DNA from: Escherichia coli | Lineage (GTDB): Bacteria > Pseudomonadota > Gammaproteobacteria > Enterobacterales > Enterobacteriaceae | Length of the DNA stretch: 10,459 nucleotides | Assembly (NCBI RefSeq): GCF_003334765.1 | Contig: NZ_QOWT01000058.1 | Strand: one strand, 5' to 3' | In this document: piece by piece, positions 1 through 10,459 of the stretch | Layout of the letters: every line of letters begins with the position of its first letter | How positions within the stretch are numbered: the first letter of the stretch is position 1 | Translations under genes and position numbers: made by a program | The notes under the pieces: model-generated | What the model was told of the DNA's origin: nothing | The model's input: only the letters and a program-made list of their open reading frames with translations | The model's database searches: none

Positions 1-1016
1 ACCGAGAAAGACACTGAAGTTCAAAACACCGAAAGAGATAATTGAAAGGGGTGTTGCATTGACAGATTGAATCTACAACAGCGTATTTTGCACAGGAGTC
101 GCTGAAAAATACGCGTTAATCGAACAATGGCGACAACAATTTCCCATTGAAGCGATGTGTCAGGTATTTGGTGTATCCAGGAGCGGTTATTACAACTGGG
201 TACAGCATGAACCCTCAGACAGAAAACAAAGTGATGAGCGGCTAAAACTGGAGATTAAGGTGGCACATATCCGCACTCGCGAAACATATGGAACCCGGCG
301 GCTCCAGACGGAGCTGGCAGAGAATGGCATCATCGTTGGTCGTGACCGACTGGCACGTCTTCGTAAGGAGCTAAGGCTACGCTGTAAGCAGAAACGCAAG
401 TTCAGAGCGACTACGAACTCGAACCACAATCTGCCAGTTGCGCCAAATCTGCTGAACCAGACGTTCGCTCCTACAGCACCAAATCAGGTCTGGGTGGCGG
501 ACCTGACGTATGTTGCCACACAGGAGGGATGGTTGTACCTCGCTGGCATCAAAGATGTTTATACGTGCGAAATTGTCGGCTACGCCATGGGAGAGCGCAT
601 GACAAAAGAGCTGACAGGTAAAGCCCTGTTTATGGCGCTCAGGAGCCAGCGCCCACCTGCCGGGCTAATCCACCACTCTGATCGAGGTTCACAGTACTGC
701 GCATACGATTACCGGGTCATACAGGAGCAGTTTGGTCTGAAAACATCAATGTCGCGTAAAGGTAACTGTTACGACAACGCTCCGATGGAAAGCTTCTGGG
801 GAACGCTGAAAAATGAGAGCCTGAGCCACTATCGTTTTAATAACCGGGATGAAGCCATCTCAGTAATACGGGAATACATTGAGATTTTCTACAATCGTCA
901 GCGTCGTCACTCTCGTCTGGGGAATATCTCCCCGGCAGCCTTCAGGGAAAAATATCATCAGATGGCTGCTTAAAAAAAGAACAAATGGTAGTGTCCGCTA
1001 TTGCCAGTACACCTCA
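1..1016 (+). mobile_element. IS3-family insertion sequence (possibly IS600-like), 3' ~1 kb; left end lies outside the window
   Basis: OrfB frame is open from 71 and contains the 272-aa ORF 155..973. An OrfA-like C-terminal tail (QIESTTAYFAQESLKNTR, 63..119) sits in the frame that is -1-shifted relative to OrfB, the usual IS3-family arrangement. The proposed right end CCAGTACACCTCA (1004..1016) ends in CA; its reverse complement TGAGGTGTACTGGCAATAGCGGACAC resembles IS3-type terminal repeats as I recall them. The right boundary is an estimate. Confidence 0.7.
155..973 (+). CDS. IS3-family transposase OrfB (DDE integrase-core domain)
   Basis: 272-aa ORF with typical IS3 OrfB features: N-terminal VSRSGYY motif, WLYLA...D, HSDRGSQY and CYDNAPMESFWGTLK motifs. 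In IS3 elements this frame is normally expressed as an OrfAB fusion by -1 frameshifting; the frame is open upstream to 71. The specific IS name is from memory only. Confidence 0.9.
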   Translation: MCQVFGVSRSGYYNWVQHEPSDRKQSDERLKLEIKVAHIRTRETYGTRRLQTELAENGIIVGRDRLARLRKELRLRCKQKRKFRATTNSNHNLPVAPNLLNQTFAPTAPNQVWVADLTYVATQEGWLYLAGIKDVYTCEIVGYAMGERMTKELTGKALFMALRSQRPPAGLIHHSDRGSQYCAYDYRVIQEQFGLKTSMSRKGNCYDNAPMESFWGTLKNESLSHYRFNNRDEAISVIREYIEIFYNRQRRHSRLGNISPAAFREKYHQMAA

Positions 1017-1447
1017 CGCTTCCAGTCTTCGCGGTCGTTGTCGATAACTTCTTTTTTTGCCCAGCGATGGATGCTGCCGTCAATGTTTCCGGCATCCACA
1101 TCACTAGGCCAGAGAGCGTAGGCCAGTTCGTCATCCAGTGTTTTCCATGTCTGCTTGTATTCGCGATGAATGGCAGCAATGACCGGGCTGATTTTTCCTG
1201 TTGAATTTTCAGTGTACTGTTGATTGGCTCTGGCGCGGGCGAGATCAACAACAGACGTGTATTTTCCGGTTTCCTTGCGTTCACCTTCGCGACGTTTTTT
1301 CCAGATGCGCATCTCTGCCTGAATTTCGGGCCATTTAGCACCAGGAATACATTTATGCTTAACCCACCCAATGGCGTGCAACTTAAGCTCCGGATACGGG
1401 TTATTCCCCTCTGAACAGGCGCGTAAGGACTGGCAAAACGCCCGCAA
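998..1447 (-). CDS. hypothetical protein (phage-like), 3' end runs into the IS3-family element
   Basis: 149-codon ORF with protein-like composition, but the first codon is TTG and the first ATG is 46 codons in. The last 5 codons plus stop (998..1016) lie inside the proposed IS terminal sequence, so the native C-terminus may have been replaced by the insertion. A second minus-strand frame (970..1464) has low-complexity translation and is considered spurious. Confidence 0.3.
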   Translation of the reverse strand: MRAFCQSLRACSEGNNPYPELKLHAIGWVKHKCIPGAKWPEIQAEMRIWKKRREGERKETGKYTSVVDLARARANQQYTENSTGKISPVIAAIHREYKQTWKTLDDELAYALWPSDVDAGNIDGSIHRWAKKEVIDNDREDWKREVYWQ

Positions 1448-1466
1448 AAAACTCTCGAGGGCAAAG

Positions 1467-1637
1467 GTGAAGAAACCTGCTGTGGTTGATCCGGACCTTA
1501 TCTGGTCATCACCTGACGGAGAAATACGTCGCTACGACAGTCGCCTAAACATAATCTGTCGCGAGTGCCGGAAGAGCGAAGTTATGCAGCGCATACTGGC
1601 TTTCTATCAGGGTAATTTTCAGGACGTGGCGCAGTGA
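1467..1637 (+). CDS. small hypothetical ORF, translationally coupled (GTGA overlap) to the downstream methyltransferase-like gene
   Basis: The track ORF starts at 1371, but that would overlap the divergent minus-strand ORF. GTG at 1467 is preceded by GAGGG (1457..1461). Its stop TGA (1635..1637) overlaps the GTG start at 1634 of the next ORF. No recognised domain. Confidence 0.25.
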   Translation: MKKPAVVDPDLIWSSPDGEIRRYDSRLNIICRECRKSEVMQRILAFYQGNFQDVAQ

Positions 1638-2080
1638 GTGCACCGGCAACCATTCTTGATATGTGCTGTGGCAGCCGCATGTTCTGGTTCGATAAGTCTG
1701 ACGAACGGGCGATATTCAGCGATATCAGAAAAGAAGGATACACATTACGCAATGGGAGACGCTTGATTATCAGCCCTGACATTATCGCAGATTTTCGTGC
1801 ATTATCATTTGCAGACGCATCTTTTTCGATGGTTGTATTAGACCCTCCGCATCTTGAGAGTGTTGGTGATAACGCCTGGATGGGAAAGAAATATGGACGG
1901 CTGAATAAAGATGCCTGGCGTGATGATTCGCGACAGAGATTTAAAGAAGCCTTTCGGGTGTTGAGGCCGCACGGCGTTCTGATTTTTTAATGGAATGAAA
2001 CGCAAATACCGGTAAGCCAGATTCTGGCACTGACAGACAGAAAACCTGTTATCTGTCAACGAACAGGGAAAAAACGATAA
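1634..2080 (+). pseudogene. SAM-dependent (DNA) methyltransferase-like gene interrupted by an in-frame TAA at 1988..1990
   Basis: Translation contains a motif-I-like DMCCGSR and a motif-IV-like VVLDPPH (DPPY/NPPY class), then LRPHGVLIF before the TAA. The same frame stays open for 29 more codons (WNETQIPVSQILALTDRKPVICQRTGKKR) to TAA 2078..2080. Assignment to the N6-adenine/N4-cytosine methyltransferase class is by motif only. Confidence 0.45.
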
Positions 2081-2252
2081 AACCCACTGGATTATTTTTA
2101 TGAAAGAGGCATCCAGTGAGTAGATTCGTAAGGCTACAGATACGTATATCTGAATAATTAAATTCAGTTCTGTAAATAAAATTTAATCCTTAACCGGATG
2201 GATTTCTGCACCCTCAGAACATCAGGAGGCCGCCCGAAAGGGCGGTAGTGAA

Positions 2253-2363
2253 ATGCGAAAGTTCAAAATTATTATTGAAACGGGAATAGCTGGTGGAGAT
2301 TTTGAGGATGTATTCGAAGTGGACGATGACGCAACACCTGAGGAAATTCATGACGGAGCATAA
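2253..2363 (+). CDS. small acidic hypothetical ORF (36 aa)
   Basis: ATG 2253 to TAA 2361..2363, translation MRKFKIIIETGIAGGDFEDVFEVDDDATPEEIHDGA. AGGAGG lies at 2224..2229, separated from the ATG by a GAAA-capped hairpin (2229..2246). Below the ORF-track length cutoff and unverified. Confidence 0.2.
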   Translation: MRKFKIIIETGIAGGDFEDVFEVDDDATPEEIHDGA

Positions 2364-2412
2364 GAAATTTTCTTTAACTACTGCAATTACTCATACCACG
2401 AAATAAAAGACG

Positions 2413-2604
2413 ATGAGGAAGAACAAAGTGGCTGATTTTTGTTCAGCTAAATATAACATCAGTTTTGAAGAGCGGGATGAACTATTAATGGACTATGGTG
2501 AGTTACGCGGTGGAAGTGCTGCTGATGTCGAATCCTAGCGTGATGACTATGAAGCGGGAAAAACTCCGGTCGAAGCATATTGTGATGAGTGGGGCGATGA
2601 ATGA
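2413..2604 (+). pseudogene. short ORF interrupted by in-frame TAG (2536..2538); probable decayed prophage gene
   Basis: ATG 2413, 41 codons, TAG, then 21 more open codons to TGA 2602..2604. The alternative frame is also open, which fits decayed coding DNA. Confidence 0.2.
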
Positions 2605-2888
2605 GCGAGATTAATTATCAGGAAGGGCATGAAACGGCGGGGCAAGCAAAACCAGTGGCATGGCGATATCGCTACGTGAAAAAAGGCGTTACGGACTTTC
2701 AGGGGAAGTAGTGGTCTGGTGACTGGAAATATGTACCGAAAAAAGAGGATTGTAACGACAGGCCGAACTATCAAATTCAGGCCTTATTCACTGCCTCACC
2801 AGTCCCAGTTACATCAGAAGAACTGGTTAAAGCTGTGCACTTTTATGAACAACTAAAACGCGAAAATCCACCAACATCCGGCAACTAG
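2601..2888 (+). pseudogene. short ORF interrupted by in-frame TAG (2709..2711); probable decayed prophage gene
   Basis: ATG 2601 overlaps the upstream stop (ATGA). 36 codons, TAG, then 58 further open codons (WSGDWKYVPKKEDCNDRPNYQIQALFTASPVPVTSEELVKAVHFYEQLKRENPPTSGN) to TAG 2886..2888. Confidence 0.25.
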
Positions 2889-3142
2889 ATTAATGGATTA
2901 ACTATGTCGGTTAAACGACCAGCCAACTGAAAAAGCGGAAACCTGATTACAGGTTGCCAGATAAGGCAATGAGCTACCTGGCGCGGAACGGACTGATAAG
3001 TATGGGGAATGTTTTACGATGAACCTTTAGACTAAAGAGTTTGTAACGCTATGTAAGTGATTTTTTCTGGTTTAGATATTTATATGTCCGGCCAAATTGA
3101 GGTGTGTTTAAATGTAATTGCACATTGATTGTAGGAGGAATA

Positions 3143-3322
3143 ATGAAAAACGCATTGCAGTTTTTGTTTGTTGCGTTCTGGTTGTTCGCATCATGTATGC
3201 CCATCATCTTCACAGCAAGGTATATGGAAAAAGTTGATGTTTTGATATTAATATTTGGATATATAAATGCCCTTTTTTTAGGGGTGTTCATGGCGGTCAT
3301 GTGCATTGAATACTGGCGGTAA
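3143..3322 (+). CDS. small predicted membrane protein (59 aa, two hydrophobic helices) in an AT-rich islet
   Basis: Strong Shine-Dalgarno AGGAGG (3133..3138) 4 nt before ATG 3143. Translation MKNALQFLFVAFWLFASCMPIIFTARYMEKVDVLILIFGYINALFLGVFMAVMCIEYWR has two hydrophobic segments. Local GC content is low. The track lists a longer 3104 start with no ribosome-binding site. Confidence 0.4.
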   Translation: MKNALQFLFVAFWLFASCMPIIFTARYMEKVDVLILIFGYINALFLGVFMAVMCIEYWR

Positions 3323-3508
3323 ATACAGCGAACTCCATTGGTTTAGTTGGATATTTACTGTGCTGGACAAAAACGGTTTGCGGGGAAATCTTAGTTAAGT
3401 AGAATGACTGCGGGTGCTTGAGGCTATCTGCCTCGGGCATGGACACCAACGGCAGATAGAGAAAAGCCCCAGTTAACATTACGCGTCCTGCAAGACGCTT
3501 AACATTAA

Positions 3509-3590
3509 TCTGAGGCCAATTTCATGCTAGACACATGTAGGTTAGCCTCTTACGTGCCGAAAGGCACGGAGAAGCAGGCTATTGTTAACA
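3509..3590 (+). other. degenerate relE-3'end/hok-leader-like segment (paralogous remnant of the hokD translation-initiation region), no intact toxin ORF
   Basis: 3568..3582 GGAGAAGCAGGCTAT is identical to the hokD ribosome-binding site and start region at 6857..6871. The upstream hairpin CGTGCC-GAAA-GGCACG (3553..3568) parallels CACC-GAA-GGTG (6824..6834) with compensatory changes. 3509..3537 weakly resembles 6794..6818. The start position reads ATT and only 6 codons follow before TAA. Confidence 0.4.
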
Positions 3591-3627
3591 CCAAGCTGTA
3601 ATGTCCCCTTTGAACCATTCTAAAATG

Positions 3628-3654
3628 TCCCCAGACAATTCTCTGGGGGATTTT
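3628..3654 (+). other. stem-loop CCCCAGA-caattc-TCTGGGG plus T-run directly upstream of the transposase start
   Basis: 7-bp perfect stem followed by GATTTTTC, ending 2 nt before ATG 3657. It is terminator-like; it may insulate the transposase gene from read-in transcription or be part of the IS end. Confidence 0.4.
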
Positions 3655-3656
3655 TC

Positions 3657-4970
3657 ATGATCAAAGAGACTGTTACGATGAGTCATAAGGAACTCCACCG
3701 ACTTCAGATTATTCAGGAACAAGCTGCGGCACGCATTGGCATTTCTATTCGGCAGGTTAAACGTCTGGTGCAACGGTATAGAAATGAAGGGCCTTCTGGT
3801 CTGGTTTCCCACCGACGTGGAAAGCGTCCTAATAATTCCTTTTCTACTGAATTCAGAGCAACAGTAATTTCACTCCTCAAAGGCCGTTACGCTGATTTTG
3901 GACCTACGTTTGCGTGCGAAAAATTGCGCGAGATACACGGTTTATCTTTATCCGTTGAAACTCTCAGAAAGTGGATGATAGAAGAGGGGTTATGGCGTGA
4001 ACGCCGTCGTAAAATTGCCCGTATATATCAACGCCGCATGCGACGACCATCTTACGGTGAACTGATCCAGATTGATGGCTCACCTCATGACTGGTTTGAA
4101 AATCGAGGCCCCAGATGTACACTGATCGTTTTCATTGATGATGCCACCAGTGCGTTGATGGCGTTGCGTTTTGTGCCTGCTGAAACAACCCGGGCTTACA
4201 TGGAAACCCTCCGGGGTTACCTTAATGATCATGGCGTACCGCTCGCTCTCTACTCTGATAGACACAGTATATTCAGGGTAAATAACCCAGAGCGGGAAGG
4301 TGAGCTGACCCAGTTCACTCGTGCGATAAAGACACTGGGCATCGAGCCAATCCATGCCAACAGCCCGCAGGCAAAAGGGCGGGTAGAGCGCGCCAATCAG
4401 ACACTACAGGACAGGCTGGTCAAAGAAATGCGGCTTCAGAATATCAGTGATATTGAAACAGCAAATGCATGGTTGCCGACCTTTATTGAAGCCTATAACA
4501 ACCGGTTCGCTACGTCGCCTCGTACTACTGATAATGCTCATCTTGATGTGCACCATTCTGAAGAGGAACTGGGTTATATCTTCAGCCTACAGGCGAAGCG
4601 CGTTCTGTCTAAAAATCTCACTTTCCAGTACAAAAGCAGTGCGTTTCAGGTACGCAGTGAGGGCCGGGGATATCGACTTAGGCATTCGGTTGTTACTGTA
4701 TGCGAGAACTTTGACGGTGAAATTAACGTTCTGTATGACGGGAAAGCGCTGGGCTGGGAAAAGTATGTTGATGGCCCGGAGCCTATACCACTGGATGATG
4801 AAAAGAGTGTCCATGAACGAGTGGATAATGCCCGTATTGATTTACGCTCAAAATACTATGTTAAACCTAAAGCTGACCATCCCTGGCTTACGCGCCGAAC
4901 GCAAAGTCATCAGCAAGTTAAGCCCCCGAAGTTACCTAAAAAGAAGCCTGATCCCGATAAAAAAGATTGA
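3657..4970 (+). CDS. DDE transposase with N-terminal helix-turn-helix and integrase-core domain (ISNCY/IS1202-group or IS481-like)
   Basis: 437-aa ORF. The N-terminus (RIGISIRQVKRLVQRYRNEG) looks like a helix-turn-helix. Candidate catalytic residues are D in IQIDGSPHDW, D in ALYSDRHSIF and E in KGRVERANQTL. The basic lysine/proline-rich C-terminus is typical of transposases. GGGGGA precedes the ATG by 7 nt. Family assignment is from memory. Confidence 0.85.
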   Translation: MIKETVTMSHKELHRLQIIQEQAAARIGISIRQVKRLVQRYRNEGPSGLVSHRRGKRPNNSFSTEFRATVISLLKGRYADFGPTFACEKLREIHGLSLSVETLRKWMIEEGLWRERRRKIARIYQRRMRRPSYGELIQIDGSPHDWFENRGPRCTLIVFIDDATSALMALRFVPAETTRAYMETLRGYLNDHGVPLALYSDRHSIFRVNNPEREGELTQFTRAIKTLGIEPIHANSPQAKGRVERANQTLQDRLVKEMRLQNISDIETANAWLPTFIEAYNNRFATSPRTTDNAHLDVHHSEEELGYIFSLQAKRVLSKNLTFQYKSSAFQVRSEGRGYRLRHSVVTVCENFDGEINVLYDGKALGWEKYVDGPEPIPLDDEKSVHERVDNARIDLRSKYYVKPKADHPWLTRRTQSHQQVKPPKLPKKKPDPDKKD

Positions 4971-5366
4971 AACCAAGATCGATTCGGTTGAGTGCATATC
5001 CATTCATAGGGTAGATTCTTAAGTCGCGTTTCTGGTGTTCATTTTCGGGTGGTTTGTTACTTGTTTTACCGGGGATATGCCAGAAACGCGCTGAGTCAGT
5101 CTGGGCGGTGCGCGTAATGAGGCGTTATGGTAAATAGCCTATGCTAATGTCCGCTAAGAGCAAGAAGCGGAAGTTGGCAGTTTTGTGGACTGTCCCCACA
5201 AAAGTGACTACAGAAATAGTTGCAATTCATAATTGATCATGGGTTGTCAGTTAAACTCGTGGCGATTTAAATAGACTAATTGGGAGTGCGTCCATTACTT
5301 ATATCTTGTAATGTTAACTATCAGAAATGATACAAAGATAATATGTCTTTAAAGAAAAGGCTGATG

Positions 5367-5392
5367 GCGAAAAGTGGCCCGATGAGGGCCAC
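5367..5392 (-). terminator. rho-independent terminator of flxA
   Basis: Hairpin GTGGCCC-gatga-GGGCCAC (5374..5392). On the minus strand it is followed by TTTTCGCC, 14 nt downstream of the flxA stop. Confidence 0.5.
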
Positions 5393-5406
5393 AATACGGC
5401 TGTCAC

Positions 5407-5739
5407 TTAGACGTAAATATCAATGGTGCCAGCGGTATTTGTATCGTCTTTTTTCTCTTCTTTTTTATCAGGCTGAACTGTCGCGTCTTCATTCTTTTTC
5501 TCTGCCTGCTGCCTTAACAACTGCTCCAGTTGAGCCCAGAGGCTTTCAATTTGCTTCTGTACCAATGCAGCCATTTCTTTTTTCTGCTGTGTCGTCATCC
5601 CCTCTTCCGATGAGATTTTCCCAAGCTTTTCAGTCAGCACCTGAATTTGTCTTGTGATTTTGGCTATTTCTGATGTTCCTTCCGGGGCGGAGTTGTTTGA
5701 AATAACGGTTGAGGTATTTCCCTGAATTGTGACAGACAT
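5407..5739 (-). CDS. flxA: FlxA (FliA-regulated prophage protein)
   Basis: 110-aa ORF (MSVTIQGNTSTVISNNSAPEG...QQKKEMAALVQKQIESLWAQLEQLL...) recognised from memory as E. coli FlxA. GGAG lies 7 nt upstream of the ATG on the minus strand, and a sigma-28 promoter lies just upstream. Confidence 0.85.
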   Translation of the reverse strand: MSVTIQGNTSTVISNNSAPEGTSEIAKITRQIQVLTEKLGKISSEEGMTTQQKKEMAALVQKQIESLWAQLEQLLRQQAEKKNEDATVQPDKKEEKKDDTNTAGTIDIYV

Positions 5740-5762
5740 AGATTTCTCCTTTTAAAAAAGCA

Positions 5763-5789
5763 CTATCGGCATGCACAAAAAAATCTTTA
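5763..5789 (-). promoter_or_regulatory. sigma-28 (FliA) promoter for flxA
   Basis: Minus strand reads TAAAGATT-N11-GCCGATAG against the class-3 flagellar consensus TAAAGTTT-N11-GCCGATAA (14/16). The -10 element ends about 24 nt upstream of the flxA ATG. Confidence 0.6.
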
Positions 5790-5941
5790 ATCGTATTTCT
5801 TGTGTCATTAATTGTTTGATGTTCAGATTGTTTTCCTCGCGGGCTGGCGCGCCTCAGAAAGTAAAGCTTGTTGACAGGGGTAAACGTTCGGCAATAATTT
5901 TCTGCCGCATGCGGGTGTTGCATAAAACGTGTTACGTTCCT

Positions 5942-6247
5942 TTATCGACAGGTCAGGTCACCGCTCACCCGCCGACGAGAAAGCAACACTGACATGCTAA
6001 AGCAAAAAATAGATGAATAAGTTGAGTTGTGCATATGTAGCCTGACCGTCACAAAGTATATGGTGTCTGTACCAGTAAGATGATGGCCGGACTCTTTAAA
6101 AACGAGCTGACCTGCACAATACAGGATGGACTTAGCAATGGCTGCTCCTGGCACAAAGCGGACAGTGATCACCGTTCTTACGACTACTTTCTGACTTCCT
6201 TCGTGACTTGCCCTAAGCATGTTGTAGTGCGATACTTGTAATGACAT
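5942..6247 (-). CDS. ydfV: YdfV-like hypothetical ORF (doubtful coding status)
   Basis: 101-codon ORF at the position where K-12 annotates ydfV, as I recall. Its ATG (6245..6247) lies inside the relBE operator repeats and the translation is S/T/C-rich and poorly protein-like, so it is kept at low confidence. Confidence 0.4.
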   Translation of the reverse strand: MSLQVSHYNMLRASHEGSQKVVVRTVITVRFVPGAAIAKSILYCAGQLVFKESGHHLTGTDTIYFVTVRLHMHNSTYSSIFCFSMSVLLSRRRVSGDLTCR

Positions 6248-6259
6248 TTGTAATTACAA
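6208..6259 (+). promoter_or_regulatory. relBE promoter and operator (relO)
   Basis: -35 TTGCCC (6208..6213), 17-nt spacer, -10 GATACT (6231..6236). TTGTAAT repeats at 6236..6242 and 6248..6254, and the palindrome TTGTAATTACAA (6248..6259), lie between the promoter and the relB ATG at 6272. This is the classic RelB-RelE autoregulation site. Confidence 0.65.
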
Positions 6260-6271
6260 GAGGTGTAAGAC

Positions 6272-6511
6272 ATGGGTAGCATTAACCTGCGTATTGACGA
6301 TGAACTTAAAGCGCGTTCTTACGCCGCGCTTGAAAAAATGGGTGTAACTCCTTCTGAAGCGCTTCGTCTCATGCTCGAGTATATCGCTGACAATGAACGC
6401 TTGCCGTTCAAACAGACACTCCTGAGTGATGAAGATGCTGAACTTGTGGAGATAGTGAAAGAACGGCTTCGTAATCCTAAGCCAGTACGTGTGACGCTGG
6501 ATGAACTCTGA
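6272..6511 (+). CDS. relB: RelB antitoxin
   Basis: 79-aa ORF MGSINLRIDDELKARSYAALEKMGVTPSEALRLMLEYIADNERLPFKQTLLSDEDAELVEIVKERLRNPKPVRVTLDEL, near-identical to E. coli RelB from memory. Its stop overlaps the relE start (TGATG). Confidence 0.93.
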   Translation: MGSINLRIDDELKARSYAALEKMGVTPSEALRLMLEYIADNERLPFKQTLLSDEDAELVEIVKERLRNPKPVRVTLDEL

Positions 6512-6798
6512 TGGCGTATTTTCTGGATTTTGACGAGCGGGCACTAAAGGAATGGCGAAAGCTGGGCTCGACGGTACGTGAACAGTTGAAAAAGAAGCTG
6601 GTTGAAGTACTTGAGTCACCCCGGATTGAAGCAAACAAGCTCCGTGGTATGCCTGATTGTTACAAGATTAAGCTCCGGTCTTCAGGCTATCGCCTTGTAT
6701 ACCAGGTTATAGACGAGAAAGTTGTCGTTTTCGTGATTTCTGTTGGGAAAAGAGAACGCTCGGAAGTATATAGCGAGGCGGTCAAACGCATTCTCTGA
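6511..6798 (+). CDS. relE: RelE mRNA interferase toxin
   Basis: 95-aa ORF MAYFLDFDERALKEWRKLGSTVREQLKKKLVEVLESPRIEANKLRGMPDCYKIKLRSSGYRLVYQVIDEKVVVFVISVGKRERSEVYSEAVKRIL, recognised as RelE. It is translationally coupled to relB. Confidence 0.93.
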   Translation: MAYFLDFDERALKEWRKLGSTVREQLKKKLVEVLESPRIEANKLRGMPDCYKIKLRSSGYRLVYQVIDEKVVVFVISVGKRERSEVYSEAVKRIL

Positions 6799-6869
6799 AC
6801 CAAAGCATGACATCTCTGTTTCGCACCGAAGGTGACACTTCTGCTTTGCGTTGACAGGAGAAGCAGGCT

Positions 6870-7025
6870 ATGAAGCAGCAAAAGGCGATGTTAATCGCCC
6901 TGATCGTCATCTGTTTAACCGTCATAGTGACGGCACTGGTAACGAGGAAAGACCTCTGCGAGGTACGAATCCGAACCGGCCAGACGGAGGTCGCTGTCTT
7001 CACAGCTTACGAACCTGAGGAGTAA
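6870..7025 (+). CDS. hokD: HokD (RelF) Hok-family type I membrane toxin
   Basis: 51-aa ORF MKQQKAMLIALIVICLTVIVTALVTRKDLCEVRIRTGQTEVAVFTAYEPEE, not in the ORF track because it is short. It has a ribosome-binding site GGAG at 6857..6860. The Hok family signature is a transmembrane helix followed by LCE. Confidence 0.9.
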   Translation: MKQQKAMLIALIVICLTVIVTALVTRKDLCEVRIRTGQTEVAVFTAYEPEE

Positions 7026-7083
7026 GAGACCCGGCGGGGGAGAAATCCCTCGCCACCTCTGATGTGGCAGGCATCCTCAACGC

Positions 7084-7115
7084 ACCCGCACTTAACCCGC
7101 TTCGGCGGGTTTTTG
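7084..7115 (+). terminator. rho-independent terminator after the relB-relE-hokD operon
   Basis: Hairpin CCCGC-ttcg-GCGGG (7086..7099) followed by TTTTTGTTTTTATTTT (7100..7115). Confidence 0.6.
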
Positions 7116-7241
7116 TTTTTATTTTCAACGCGTTTGAAGTTCTGGACGGTGCCGGAATAGAATCAAAAATACTTAAGTAGCGCGCAGGGATAAGAGGGAT
7201 GGTCCCTTAAAGGGGAGAGCTAATTATCCGGAAGGATTCTG

Positions 7242-7493
7242 ATGATGAACATCGAAGAACTGCGTAAAATTTTTTGTGAAGATGGCCTCTATGCTGTGTG
7301 CGTTGAAAATGGAAATCTTGTTAGTCATTACCGCATTATGTGTTTGCGAAAGAATGGGGCTGCGTTAATTAATTTTGTGGATGCTCGGGTCACGGACGGA
7401 TTTATCTTGCGCGAAGGTGAGTTTGTCACTTCATTACAGGCATTGAAAGAGATCGGAATAAAAGCTGGCTTTTCTGCTTTTTCAGGAGAATAA
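7242..7493 (+). CDS. rem: Rem-like prophage protein
   Basis: 83-aa ORF MMNIEELRKIFCEDGLYAVCVENGNLVSHYRIMCLRKNGAALINFVDARVTDGFILREGEF..., matching Qin prophage Rem by memory and by its position between hokD and ydfU. Confidence 0.8.
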   Translation: MMNIEELRKIFCEDGLYAVCVENGNLVSHYRIMCLRKNGAALINFVDARVTDGFILREGEFVTSLQALKEIGIKAGFSAFSGE

Positions 7494-7559
7494 ACTCATC
7501 TACAATCTTGCGCGGGGCTGAACTCCCGCTGAGTAACACCGTGCCACCGGAGAAAACCG

Positions 7560-7838
7560 ATGGCACGCAACGCAAAATATTACAATTCTGATAATTCGCC
7601 CGTTCTTGCCTGCACGCACGGGCGGTATTCTCACGCATTCAAGTCTGAATGGTTCCAGCACCCTCCATGCACTGCAGAACAGGCCGAATGGCTGATTCAT
7701 TCTTACCGCAGGCGCGGGTTCGAGGTTAAGAAAGCTCTCAGTCTCGACTATCGGCACTGGATAATCTCTGTCAGGCTGCCTTATTCCGAACGCCCACCAC
7801 GTGCGTCCCGCACTTTCCAGCAACGGATCTGGAGGTAA
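7560..7838 (+). CDS. hypothetical prophage protein (92 aa), tightly coupled to ydfU
   Basis: GGAG sits 7 nt upstream of the ATG. Its stop at 7836..7838 is followed 1 nt later by the ydfU GTG start, whose ribosome-binding site GGAGG (7831..7835) lies inside this ORF. No recognised domain. Confidence 0.45.
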   Translation: MARNAKYYNSDNSPVLACTHGRYSHAFKSEWFQHPPCTAEQAEWLIHSYRRRGFEVKKALSLDYRHWIISVRLPYSERPPRASRTFQQRIWR

Positions 7839-7839
7839 C

Positions 7840-8889
7840 GTGCGGGTATTACTTAGACCTGTTCTGGTGCCTGAGCTTGGGCTGGTGGTCCTTAAGCCGG
7901 GCCGTGAATCCATACAGATATTTCATAATCCTCGAGTGCTGGTGGAACCGGAACCAAAAAGCATGCGTAATCTGCCATCCGGAGTCGTTCCTGCCGTTCG
8001 CCAGCCGCTGGCGGAAGACAAAACATTGCTGCCGTTTTTTAGTAACGAACGGGTGATTCGTGCTGCTGGCGGCGTTGGCGCATTGTCCGACTGGCTATTA
8101 CGTCATGTTACATCCTGCCAGTGGCCTAATGGCGATTACCATCACACTGAAACAGTCATTCACCGTTATGGTACCGGCGCAATGGTGTTGTGCTGGCACT
8201 GCGACAACCAACTGCGTGACCAGACATCGGAATCACTGGAGCTGCTTGCTCAACAAAATCTGACAGCATGGGTGATTGACGTCATCCGTCACGCAATAAG
8301 CGGTACGCAGGAGCGGGAATTATCTTTGGCTGAATTATCCTGGTGGGCGGTCTGCAATCAGGTGGTGGATGCACTACCTGAGGCTGTATCGCGTCGTTCG
8401 CTGGGATTACCAGCGGAAAAAATCTGCTCGGTGTACCGCGAAAGCGACATCGTACCGGGAGAGCAGACCGCCACCAGCATATTGAAACAACGCACAAAAA
8501 ATCTTGCACCGTTGCCTTACGCCCACCAGCAACAAAAATCACCACAGGAAAAGACGGTGGTAAGCATCACCGTTGATCCAGAGTCTCCGGAATCTTTCAT
8601 GAAGCTGCCTAAACGTCGCCGCTGGGTTAAGGAGAAATACACACGTTGGGTTAAGACACAGCCGTGTGCTTGCTGCGGTATGCCAGCCGACGATCCGCAT
8701 CATCTGATTGGTCACGGGCAGGGCGGAATGGGAACAAAAGCACATGATCTCTTTGTGTTGCCTTTGTGCAGAAAGCATCACAACGAGCTGCATACGGATA
8801 CAGTGGCATTTGAAGATAAGTATGGCTCCCAACTGGAGCTGATATTTCGTTTTATCGATCGCGCGCTGGCAATTGGCGTACTGGCGTAA
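7840..8889 (+). CDS. ydfU: YdfU-like DUF968 protein (HNH-like C-terminal motif)
   Basis: The track ORF 7801..8889 is trimmed to GTG 7840, which is preceded by GGAGG, giving 349 aa. The C-terminus CACCGMPADDPHHLIGHGQGGMGTKAHDLFVLPLCRKHHNELH has a Cys/His pattern like HNH/zinc-binding nucleases. Identity is from memory. Confidence 0.8.
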   Translation: MRVLLRPVLVPELGLVVLKPGRESIQIFHNPRVLVEPEPKSMRNLPSGVVPAVRQPLAEDKTLLPFFSNERVIRAAGGVGALSDWLLRHVTSCQWPNGDYHHTETVIHRYGTGAMVLCWHCDNQLRDQTSESLELLAQQNLTAWVIDVIRHAISGTQERELSLAELSWWAVCNQVVDALPEAVSRRSLGLPAEKICSVYRESDIVPGEQTATSILKQRTKNLAPLPYAHQQQKSPQEKTVVSITVDPESPESFMKLPKRRRWVKEKYTRWVKTQPCACCGMPADDPHHLIGHGQGGMGTKAHDLFVLPLCRKHHNELHTDTVAFEDKYGSQLELIFRFIDRALAIGVLA

Positions 8890-8902
8890 GTGGAGAACGA
8901 GC

Positions 8903-9655
8903 ATGAACCTTGAAGCCTTACCAAAATATTACTCCCCAAAATCTCCAAAATTGAGCGATGACGCTCCAGCGACAGGCACCGGTTGTTTAACAATTACGGA
9001 TGTAATGGCAGCGCAGGGGATGGTGCAGTCGAAAGCACCACTTGGGTTGGCCTTATTTCTGGCAAAAGTTGGTGTTCAGGACCCTCAGTTTGCGATTGAA
9101 GGCCTGCTAAATTACGCGATGGCACTGGATAACCCGACATTGAACAAATTGAGTGAAGAAATCCGGTTACAGATTATTCCTTACCTCGTGAGTTTTGCCT
9201 TTGCTGATTACTCCAGGTCTGCGGCAAGTAAGGCTCGCTGTGAGCATTGTTCAGGTACGGGATTTTATAATGTATTGCGCGAAGTGGTGAAACACTACAG
9301 ACGCGGGGAATCTGTAATCAAGGAAGAATGGGTGAAGGAACTATGTCAGCATTGCCATGGTAAGGGCGAAGCCAGCACAGCGTGCAGAGGGTGTAAGGGT
9401 AAAGGGATTGTTCTGGATGAAAAAAGAACCCGGTTTCATGGCGTACCGGTATATAAGATTTGTGGGCGTTGTAATGGAAACCGGTTTAGTCGTTTACCGA
9501 CCACGCTGGCACGACGTCATGTCCAGAAGCTGGTACCAGACCTGACCGATTATCAGTGGTATAAGGGGTATGCGGACGTCATTGGTAAACTGGTAACAAA
9601 GTGCTGGCAGGAAGAAGCATACGCGGAAGCGCAATTGAGGAAGGTGACGAGATAA
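8903..9655 (+). CDS. quuQ: Q-family late-gene antiterminator (QuuQ-like)
   Basis: 250 aa from ATG 8903, which has GGAG 6 nt upstream; the track ORF starts 10 codons earlier. Contains several CxxC pairs (CEHCSGTG, CQHCHGKG, CRGCKGKG, CGRCNGN) and is followed by a promoter-terminator pair arranged like lambdoid P_R'-tR'. Confidence 0.85.
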   Translation: MNLEALPKYYSPKSPKLSDDAPATGTGCLTITDVMAAQGMVQSKAPLGLALFLAKVGVQDPQFAIEGLLNYAMALDNPTLNKLSEEIRLQIIPYLVSFAFADYSRSAASKARCEHCSGTGFYNVLREVVKHYRRGESVIKEEWVKELCQHCHGKGEASTACRGCKGKGIVLDEKRTRFHGVPVYKICGRCNGNRFSRLPTTLARRHVQKLVPDLTDYQWYKGYADVIGKLVTKCWQEEAYAEAQLRKVTR

Positions 9656-9686
9656 ATGATTTTTGCTGAAGATGGCGACATGATGT

Positions 9687-9715
9687 TTGCATTTTTCAAA
9701 AAATATGGATAAAAT
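9687..9715 (+). promoter_or_regulatory. putative late promoter (P_R'-like sigma-70 promoter) downstream of quuQ
   Basis: -35 TTGCAT (9687..9692), 17-nt spacer, -10 TAAAAT (9710..9715), beginning 32 nt after the quuQ stop. Confidence 0.5.
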
Positions 9716-9760
9716 TTTTTCAACGATGGGCTTTGTATACCCGACGTTAAGAAAAAGTAG

Positions 9761-9790
9761 AAAACCCGCTGATGAGCGGGTTTTGTGCTT
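9761..9790 (+). terminator. rho-independent terminator (tR'-like, possibly bidirectional)
   Basis: Hairpin CCCGCT-gatg-AGCGGG (9765..9780) followed by TTTTGTGCTTT. An A-run precedes it, so it could also act on the minus strand. It lies about 50-60 nt downstream of the predicted start of the putative late promoter. Confidence 0.55.
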
Positions 9791-10076
9791 TAAATGGGGC
9801 AATGGTAATGTTGAATCTCATCCCGGGACTCATGTCTGTTAACTTATTATTTAGCTGGTGACTTGGTTATTTGCCTGATGTTTAAAATGTTTTCTTCCAG
9901 TACAATGTCCCTAAACACAATGAGTCTGCTTATTATATTATTAGCAGAGCTATTACGGCCAAAGTACAGCATAAGCTTTTAAAGCCAATCAACCAGTCAT
10001 CAAGACAGACGGGGTTATTCATAAAAACTCTCCATGTGTGATCCGATGGGGCCTGAAATTAAAGCTTTAATATAGC

Positions 10077-10289
10077 TCATGAAAGGTAAACATTGGCAGC
10101 TGAAGGGCCACGCAGACCATTTATCCGGCAAAATTCCACGCGTAATCCGGTGGTAATTTCTTCTGCATCGCGGAGATTGAGCGCTGAAACATGAAGCTGG
10201 ACATCGATACGACCATCGGATGGGGTGATAAGACCCTTGCCGCTTTTGCCGTCAAAGGTTTTGACAATTCCTGTCATTTTACGGGACAA
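10077..10289 (-). CDS. cspF: cold-shock-domain protein, CspF/CspH family
   Basis: 70-aa [73 protein letters not shown] with CspA-family motifs. It is convergent with quuQ. The first codon is TTG, with AAGGA 6 nt upstream. Confidence 0.8.
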
Positions 10290-10459
10290 AAAAATTCCTT
10301 AATACTGATAACTTGGCGCACTATACACACGTTCCTGAAGAAAGCTATAGTTTTTTGATGGGGTTGAAGATGGCTGGATGTCTAAGGAAGGTGCGAATAA
10401 GCGGGGAAATACTTCTCGGCTGACTCAGTCATTTCATTTCTTCATGTTTGAGCCGATTT

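What the first reader, a model, noticed from the sequence alone, without database searches (positions are those of the whole stretch)
1634..2080. Methyltransferase-like gene interrupted by one in-frame TAA
The ORF has a SAM-binding-like DMCCGSR and a catalytic-like VVLDPPH motif, then stops at TAA 1988..1990 inside GVLIF-stop-WNETQ. The same frame continues for 29 codons. This looks like a nonsense-inactivated prophage orphan methyltransferase; read-through or suppression would restore about 148 aa. The upstream small ORF is coupled to it by a GTGA overlap, so the unit may once have been a larger gene or operon.
Basis: partly seen in the sequence, partly recalled or inferred. Interest (0 to 1): 0.45.

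Follow-up and report, generated by a model that had tools for sequence, protein, structure and literature searches.

The report
Dead methyltransferase gene in Qin prophage
This is an ordinary broken gene: a small phage methyltransferase in the decaying Qin prophage of E. coli, cut short by a stop codon and then further damaged by a one-base insertion, so it almost certainly does nothing.

Summary
A GTG-started ORF at 1634..1990 (118 codons) ends at TAA 1988..1990, and the same frame runs 29 more codons to TAA 2078..2080. The window is the E. coli Qin-type defective prophage.

- **Family:** a small (157-162 aa) phage class I SAM-dependent methyltransferase, phrog_954. The DMCCG and DPPH motifs are conserved across the family.
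- **First lesion:** intact relatives have AAA (Lys119) where the window has TAA. Lys119-Trp120 are invariant in 40 diverse homologues.
a +1 G at 2066..2068 puts the native C-terminus (GKNDKTHWIIFMK...) out of frame. Read-through would therefore not restore the protein.
- **Structure:** the stop falls inside strand beta-5 of a high-confidence model and removes beta-6 and beta-7.
- **Upstream gene:** the DUF977 partner is cut at a deletion junction (1387/1388), so the pair has lost its native upstream region.
- **Neighbours:** they are also pseudogenes or IS elements.
- **Population:** the TAA allele is identical in 473 complete genomes. None has the same allele with AAA. One strain has TAA without the +G, so the nonsense mutation came first.

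Verdict: a fixed, decaying pseudogene. DNA as the substrate is predicted, not shown. Low interest.

The parts
1634..1990 (+). Truncated methyltransferase ORF (GTG start, 118 codons plus TAA). It equals RefSeq WP_001310834.1 'class I SAM-dependent methyltransferase'. It carries motif I (ILDMCCGSR) and motif IV (VVLDPPH).
   Evidence: sequence, ORF, translation. (annotation in E92 and FORC 064). (an 87%-identical full-length relative matches phrog_954, E 3.5e-85). (motifs invariant or nearly invariant).
1988..1990 (+). Nonsense codon TAA replacing AAA (Lys119, invariant in the family). It arose by an A-to-T substitution at 1988.
   Evidence: DNA alignment: three relatives have AAA; E92 shares TAA. 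(K119 and W120 invariant in 40 sequences). (473 complete genomes have the exact TAA allele; none has the same background with AAA).
1991..2065 (+). Untranslated remnant of the gene after the stop, still in the original frame (WNETQIPVSQILALTDRKPVICQRT). It carries Cys at position 141, where the family has a nearly invariant Gly.
2066..2068 (+). Second lesion: GGG where intact relatives, and strain VE-V11-M, have GG. This is a +1 insertion that shifts the frame.
   Evidence: alignment gap. (VE-V11-M has TAA with GG; all other fetched Qin alleles have GGG).
2067..2123 (+). Native C-terminal coding remnant, now in the +1 frame (GKNDKTHWIIFMKEASSE, stop TAG 2121..2123). It corresponds to strand beta-7 of the fold.
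   Evidence: translation. (relatives end ...GKNDKTHWIIFMK). (beta-7 at residues 150-156).
1388..1637 (+). 3' remnant of the upstream DUF977 gene (stop TGA 1635..1637, overlapping the GTG start as GTGA). Its N-terminal part is deleted.
   Evidence: PGAP: DUF977, missing N-terminus, at window 1386..1637. (homology to genomes with an intact DUF977 starts at 1388). (intact DUF977 of 140 and 138 aa with the same 4-base overlap).
1016..1387 (-). Fragment of a recE-like exonuclease gene on the opposite strand, abutting the deletion junction at 1387/1388. It replaces the native upstream region of the DUF977-methyltransferase pair.
   Evidence: partial 'hypothetical protein' at window 1016..1405, minus strand. 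(K-12 records match window 1300..1397 under a feature named 'exonuclease')..

Best explanation
The feature is a pseudogene: the relic of a small (about 160 aa) phage class I SAM-dependent methyltransferase inside the E. coli Qin-type defective prophage.

**In intact lambdoid prophages.** The gene lies just downstream of a DUF977 gene and overlaps it by 4 bases (shown). That arrangement suggests the two are translated together from the phage early transcript (inferred). By inference, the protein would methylate an exocyclic amino group of a nucleic-acid base. Phage or host DNA is the most likely target, protecting the phage against restriction. This rests on the DPPH motif IV, on the gene's position among early and replication genes in some phages, and on phage annotation.

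**In the Qin lineage.**
- An A-to-T change turned the invariant Lys119 codon into TAA.
- A G was later inserted 78 bases downstream, shifting the frame of the C-terminus.
- A deletion removed the 5' half of DUF977 and everything upstream of it.
- The Shine-Dalgarno sequence reads GGACG instead of GGAGG.

The remaining 118-codon ORF would give a protein lacking the end of beta-5 and all of beta-6 and beta-7 of the Rossmann-like sheet. It is very unlikely to fold or to act as a methyltransferase.

**Shown:** the lesions, their order, the family, the fold, and the fixation of the allele. **Inferred:** loss of function, lack of expression, and the DNA substrate of the intact family.
For: **Locus identity**
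- 100% match to the Qin region (rspB-side integrase ... ydfW, flxA, relBE, hokD, ydfU, ydfT, cspF) in many genomes.

**Family**
- phrog_954 'DNA methyltransferase', E 3.5e-85.
- 7717 homologues at E<=1e-5, of which the best 120 listed are 155-259 aa.
- 2080 representative clusters at E<=0.001.

**Lesions**
- AAA to TAA, and a +1 G.
- K119, W120 and P138 are invariant. G141, T150, F155 and K157 are at least 90% conserved. All of these lie at or after the stop.

**Fold**
Beta-5 spans 110-121, beta-6 140-144, beta-7 150-156.

**Decay context**
- DUF977 is truncated at 1387/1388.
- No convincing promoter lies upstream of the ORF: the only plus-strand promoter-like sites are 9-of-12 matches at 1776..1805 (inside the ORF) and 2248..2275 (downstream of it).
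- Neighbouring features are flagged as pseudogenes.
- An IS1 sits inside the same ORF in strain AH21, where PGAP annotates the downstream fragment as 'frameshifted; internal stop'.
- The repaired window allele departs from 3 of 39 strongly conserved columns (F69L, G102R, G141C). Its closest intact relatives depart from 0.

**Population**
- The exact TAA allele is in 473 complete genomes, one copy each, all chromosomal.
- No genome has the AAA version of the same background.
- VE-V11-M has TAA without the +G, so the nonsense mutation preceded the frameshift.

**No suppressor**
- No tRNA gene in the window.
Against: - PGAP annotates the 118-aa product as an intact protein in most genomes.
- The ORF sequence is identical between the window and a strain that differs at 9 nearby positions. 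This could in principle reflect constraint, but the sample is far too small to tell.
- Pairwise dN/dS of the window allele against intact alleles (0.17-0.22) is no higher than intact against intact (0.15-0.37). Most of the divergence therefore predates inactivation, and there is no strong drift signal.
- No expression or methylome data were available.
- The substrate of the intact family is untested.
Confidence: 0.9

Rival explanations
1. The stop is leaky or suppressed (read-through, or a suppressor tRNA), so a functional full-length methyltransferase is still made.
For: The reading frame stays open for 29 codons after the TAA. In one strain (VE-V11-M) the downstream frame is intact to the native end.
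Against: - In the window, and in every other fetched Qin allele, a +1 G at 2066..2068 breaks the frame. Read-through would give ...QRTGKKR* without the conserved THWIIFMK strand.
- Intact relatives encode Lys here. The stop is not a conserved recoding site.
- No tRNA gene lies in the window.
- The stop is TAA followed by T. From established knowledge of E. coli termination (not tested here), this is among the most efficient termination contexts.
- The native upstream region is deleted.
Confidence: 0.02
2. The 118-aa N-terminal fragment is kept because it has a function of its own, for example binding SAM or interacting with another protein, without methyltransferase activity.
For: - The allele is fixed and identical around the stop in 473 genomes.
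- PGAP treats it as a normal CDS.
- The fragment retains motifs I-IV.
- Short versions of the family exist as separate PHROGs (phrog_11564 and phrog_6151).
Against: - Fixation is expected for any neutral mutation in a vertically inherited prophage remnant.
- The fragment ends inside beta-5 and lacks beta-6 and beta-7.
- The upstream gene and native upstream region are deleted, and the Shine-Dalgarno sequence is weakened.
- IS1 disrupts the ORF in AH21.
- All neighbouring features are decayed.
- Split or short PHROG families are equally expected from pseudogenes.
Confidence: 0.05
3. The stop is a sequencing or assembly error at the T-run (TTTTTTAA).
For: The change lies at the boundary of a T5/T6 homopolymer.
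Against: It is a substitution, not a length change. It is identical in 473 independently assembled complete genomes.
Confidence: 0.01

Closest known systems
phrog_954 / RefSeq 'class I SAM-dependent methyltransferase' of lambdoid prophages (for example WP_001275735.1, 157 aa, E. coli 2014C-3655; WP_063075093.1, 161 aa)
   Same: About 88% nucleotide identity (row H4), and 87% protein identity over residues 1-118 for the 118-aa cluster representative P0137. Same GTG start overlapping the stop of the upstream gene. Same motifs (DMCCGSR, DPPH, RVLRP.GVLIF). Same DUF977 partner in L003.
   Different: The window copy has TAA for Lys119 and a +1 G near the 3' end. It has substitutions at three strongly conserved positions (F69L, G102R, G141C). 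Its upstream partner is truncated.
Beta-class N6-adenine/N4-cytosine DNA methyltransferases (Pfam N6_N4_Mtase PF01555; for example YhdJ, M.RsrI, CcrM)
   Same: A (D/N/S)PP(Y/F/H)-type motif IV, followed by a similar ...RVL.P.G... segment. There is sub-threshold Pfam similarity of residues 65-157 to model positions 2-82 (E 0.025; 12 of 40 family members at E<=0.1), and a weak NCBIfam PRK13699 match (E 0.13).
   Different: No match reaches Pfam or NCBIfam thresholds. Motif I lies N-terminal to motif IV, which is the reverse of the beta-class order. The protein is only the about 155-aa Rossmann core, with no recognisable target-recognition domain. No activity data exist.
Amino-methyltransferases of RNA with a (D/N)PP(Y/F) motif (Trm11, TrmN/Trm14, TrmM, RsmC) and M.TaqI
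E. coli K-12 YfdM (CPS-53 prophage 'putative methyltransferase')
   Same: Also a truncated prophage methyltransferase remnant.
   Different: A different family. YfdM is a Dam-like fragment ending in NPPY, with no similarity to this protein. This lead came from memory and was rejected.

Membership tests
Small phage class I SAM-dependent methyltransferase family (phrog_954) | Significant profile or sequence match over the domain | tested here: met
   The full-length relative, about 88% identical at the nucleotide level, matches phrog_954 at E 3.5e-85. The 118-aa Qin allele cluster is recovered at E 1.4e-62 with 87% identity (P0137).
Small phage class I SAM-dependent methyltransferase family (phrog_954) | Motif I (L-D-x-C/x-C-G) and motif IV (D-P-P-H) | tested here: met
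   L8, D9, C12 and G13 are at least 90% conserved. D70, P71, P72 and H73 are invariant. All are present in the window ORF.
Small phage class I SAM-dependent methyltransferase family (phrog_954) | Complete domain through F-K-W (118-120), P138, G141 and the T-H-W..F.K strand (150-157) | tested here: not met
   There is a stop at codon 119. G141 is replaced by C. The last strand is out of frame after the +1 G. It is a member by descent, but not an intact one.
Class I (Rossmann-like) SAM-dependent methyltransferase fold | Seven-stranded sheet with the SAM-binding loop after beta-1 and the catalytic motif after beta-4 | tested here: met
N6-adenine/N4-cytosine DNA methyltransferases (Pfam PF01555 N6_N4_Mtase, PF02086 MethyltransfD12) | Match to the family profile above threshold | tested here: not met
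The best of 40 members scores 1.6e-3, and none reaches <=0.001. PF02086 gives no hit.
N6-adenine/N4-cytosine DNA methyltransferases (Pfam PF01555 N6_N4_Mtase, PF02086 MethyltransfD12) | (D/N/S)PP(Y/F/W/H) catalytic motif | tested here: met
   DPPH at residues 70-73, invariant in the family.
N6-adenine/N4-cytosine DNA methyltransferases (Pfam PF01555 N6_N4_Mtase, PF02086 MethyltransfD12) | A target-recognition domain and sequence-specific DNA methylation | not testable with these tools
   The model shows only the catalytic core, apart from a small hairpin at 34-46. No literature on a tested member was found.
Programmed stop-codon read-through (recoding) | The stop codon is conserved among homologues, with a conserved in-frame downstream ORF | tested here: not met
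   Homologues have Lys (AAA) at this position. The downstream frame is broken by the +1 G in the window.

The most novel reading that the evidence does not exclude
The 118-aa fragment, fixed in roughly 9% of complete E. coli genomes, is expressed from an adventitious promoter and keeps a non-catalytic role. It might, for example, bind SAM or interfere with related methyltransferases of incoming lambdoid phages. Separately, and not specific to this window, the intact family is a minimal DPPH methyltransferase with no target-recognition domain. It has no Pfam model above threshold, no close solved structure and no tested member found here, so its substrate is open.
Probability: 0.04. Interest if true: 0.4.

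Novelty: already known. Interest (0 to 1): 0.08.

Why it matters
It matters little biologically. It is one more decayed gene in a cryptic prophage that is already known to be a mosaic of IS elements and pseudogenes.

The practical value is for annotation:
- RefSeq lists WP_001310834.1 as an intact 'class I SAM-dependent methyltransferase' in hundreds of genomes, although it is a truncated relic with two lesions.
- It should not be counted as a candidate active methyltransferase in methylome or restriction-modification surveys of strains such as E. coli W or ATCC 8739.
- The two lesions, and the single strain that has only the first, give a small, clean example of ordered pseudogene decay.

Tried and rejected
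- **Pfam and NCBIfam scans** of the full-length relative and of the 118-aa ORF gave only sub-threshold generic methyltransferase hits. They therefore cannot assign a subfamily or substrate.
- **PDB sequence and profile searches** found only PH0226 weakly.
- **K-12 YfdM** as a known relative, a lead from memory, was rejected. It belongs to a different, Dam-like family. YfdT, at the syntenic position, is also unrelated.
- **Pairwise dN/dS** as a test of relaxed selection was uninformative: 0.17-0.22 against 0.15-0.37 for intact pairs.
- **Literature searches** for a characterised member (yfdM; Qin prophage methyltransferase; orphan methyltransferase in lambdoid phages; 'DPPH motif') found nothing relevant.
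- **The terminator-like hairpin** at 1956..1979, just before the T-run, was considered and dismissed. It is a weak consensus match, and the region holds 4 such matches against 1.4 +/- 1.6 expected.
- **Programmed frameshifting** at GGGAAAAAAC was considered. It is moot, because the site lies downstream of the stop, and intact relatives simply lack the extra G.

Full report
**Observation.** The sequence is as described.
- GTG at 1634 opens a 118-codon ORF that ends at TAA 1988..1990 within ...RPHGVLIF*WNETQ...
- The same frame continues for 29 codons to TAA 2078..2080.
- The upstream ORF stops at TGA 1635..1637, which gives the GTGA overlap.

**Where the window comes from.**
- The whole window (1..10385) is 100% identical to the Qin-type defective prophage of many E. 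coli strains, including FORC 064, O157:H16 98-3133 and NCTC9087. The TAA allele is also present in E. coli W and ATCC 8739.
- In FORC 064 the region reads as follows:
  - IS30 and an IS600 remnant
  - a partial recE-like gene on the minus strand
  - a DUF977 remnant
  - the methyltransferase ORF (WP_001310834.1)
  - DUF7167 with an internal stop
  - a frameshifted hypothetical gene
  - a partial ISNCY transposase
  - ydfW, flxA, ydfV, relBE, hokD, rem, ydfU, ydfT and cspF
- Every feature from window 77 to about 4700 is flagged as a pseudogene, except the ORF in question.

**What the gene is.**
- Full-length relatives in other lambdoid prophages are 157-162 aa. One is about 88% identical at the nucleotide level in strain 2014C-3655, and others are in HB6 and UTME-3.
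- Such a relative matches phrog_954 'DNA methyltransferase' at E 3.5e-85.
- The family is large. There are 7717 homologues at E<=1e-5, and the best 120 listed are 155-259 aa. There are 2080 representative clusters at E<=0.001.
- It occurs in temperate phages of Streptococcus, Vibrio, Acinetobacter, Listeria, Enterococcus, Gordonia and Porphyromonas. Of 254 phage matches, 245 cover at least 80% of the 157-aa query.
- Pfam and NCBIfam give only sub-threshold hits: Methyltransf_11/25, and N6_N4_Mtase at E 0.025.
- In a 40-sequence alignment reaching down to 36% identity:
  - DPPH (70-73) is invariant.
  - K119 and W120 are also invariant, and the stop replaces K119.
  - P138 is invariant, and G141, T150, F155 and K157 are nearly invariant.

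**Structure.**
The model has pLDDT 94.4 and pTM 0.89.
- Strands lie at 7-11, 26-30, 34-37, 43-46, 64-70, 110-121, 140-144 and 150-156. Helices lie at 82-87, 95-109 and 127-131.
- Fold searches return class I SAM-dependent methyltransferases and no specific nearest family.
  - Foldseek hits include Trm11, M.TaqI, TrmM and an N4-cytosine methyltransferase at E 1e-5 to 5e-4.
- The stop therefore falls inside beta-5 and removes beta-6 and beta-7.
- The fold and motifs support 'methyltransferase'. The substrate is not established. DNA is the annotated and most plausible target, given the DPPH motif and the gene's position among early and replication genes in some phages.

**The lesions.** The DNA alignment shows two.
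- **Nonsense codon.** AAA has become TAA at 1988.
- **Frameshift.** An extra G is present at 2066..2068 (GGG against GG). After it, the native C-terminus GKNDKTHWIIFMKEASSE* lies in the +1 frame at 2067..2123.
- Read-through of the TAA would therefore give ...QRTGKKR*, not the native end.
- The Shine-Dalgarno sequence also reads GGACG where relatives have GGAGG.
- The repaired allele departs from 3 of 39 strongly conserved columns (F69L, G102R, G141C). Its closest intact relatives depart from none.
- Pairwise dN/dS (0.17-0.22) is not elevated compared with intact pairs, so most divergence predates inactivation.

**Upstream gene.**
- The 88-codon ORF at 1371..1637 is a chance ATG fused to the 3' part of a DUF977 gene.
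- Homology to genomes with an intact DUF977 (138-140 aa) begins at 1388.
- Upstream of the junction is a recE-like fragment on the other strand.
- In intact prophages DUF977 and the methyltransferase overlap by the same 4 bases (L003: 2328..2744 and 2741..3214). In other phages a different upstream gene overlaps in the same way.
- The arrangement is therefore a two-gene unit with overlapping stop and start, not a former larger gene.
- The native upstream region is gone in the window. No convincing promoter lies upstream of the ORF: the only plus-strand promoter-like sites are 9-of-12 matches at 1776..1805 (inside the ORF) and 2248..2275 (downstream of it).

**Population.**
- A 57-base probe centred on the stop matches exactly in 473 complete genomes, one chromosomal copy each.
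- The same probe carrying AAA has no full-length exact match. Its best full-length hits are the TAA allele at 98.2%.
- A probe for the un-inserted GG version, in the Qin-allele background, matches exactly in one genome only, VE-V11-M. That genome also has TAA.
- The nonsense mutation therefore came first, and the frameshift followed in a gene that was already dead.
- In strain AH21 an IS1 sits inside the ORF, and PGAP annotates the downstream fragment as 'frameshifted; internal stop'.
- The 90%-identity protein cluster of the 118-aa product has 385 member sequences. All 15 listed members are 118 aa or shorter, and the product was seen on at least 1000 contigs.

**Rivals.**
- **Read-through or suppression.**
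  - It is excluded as a route to a functional enzyme by the frameshift and by the non-conservation of the stop.
  - The stop is TAA followed by T, an efficient termination context in E. coli. This is established knowledge, not tested here.
  - No tRNA gene lies in the window.
- **A function for the fragment.** This cannot be formally excluded. It has no positive support beyond fixation, which neutral inheritance explains.
- **Sequencing error.** This is excluded.

**Comparison with known families.**
- By descent it belongs to the phrog_954 family, but it is not an intact member.
- It resembles N6/N4 amino-methyltransferases in motif IV and, weakly, in the segment after it.
- It fails the Pfam threshold, has the reverse motif order from the beta class, and has no recognisable target-recognition domain.
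- K-12 YfdM, which I recalled as a possible relative, is an unrelated Dam-like fragment.

**Verdict.**
It is wrong on restorability and on the meaning of the upstream ORF.
- This is an ordinary, fixed, progressively decaying prophage pseudogene.
- Its only practical consequence is that RefSeq's 'intact' annotation of WP_001310834.1 is misleading.

Noticed in passing
window 10386..10459: The last 74 bases depart from all best-matching genomes, which continue with cspF-cspB intergenic sequence. Their first 17 bases (GGAAGGTGCGAATAAGC) equal the terminal inverted repeat of the IS5-family element in locus L002. The source strain therefore appears to carry an IS5-family insertion at 10385/10386.
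   Followed up: partly
window 77..4700: This is a run of decayed features. Those flagged by PGAP in the identical FORC 064 region are an IS600 remnant (77..973), a recE-like fragment (1016..1405, minus strand), a DUF977 remnant, DUF7167 with an internal stop (2253..2435), a frameshifted hypothetical gene (2601..3022) and a partial ISNCY transposase (3678..4700). The ORF listing nevertheless shows an open 437-aa ORF at 3657..4970 that runs through the position annotated as ydfW (window 4821..4970).
   Followed up: no
L007 (E. coli VE-V11-M) 3592 and 3673: This is the only complete genome found with the TAA allele but without the +1 G. It is an intermediate stage of decay, or possibly a reversion or a homopolymer sequencing error.
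   Followed up: partly
family-wide (proteins P0011, P0081 and other members of about 248 aa): Many enterobacterial members carry a conserved C-terminal extension of about 90 aa (…LRYATKRIVELESLLL…HHQRRLKHHINRMWLEKMP…) of unknown function. Many members from other phyla instead carry N-terminal extensions of 50-80 aa. One member matched DUF6291 at E 1.7e-15.
   Followed up: no
L003 3537..5172 (E. coli 2014C-3655): Directly downstream of the intact methyltransferase in this prophage lie an 'sce7726 family protein' and a convergent 'beta family protein'. This gene pair might be a defence-type cargo. It is absent from the window.
   Followed up: no
L004 2503..2976 (E. coli HB6): A second, independent nonsense allele of the same family. 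TGG has become TAG at codon 95 in a CPS-53-like prophage, and PGAP flags it 'internal stop'. Together with the split families phrog_11564 and phrog_6151, this suggests the gene is often inactivated in resident prophages.
   Followed up: partly
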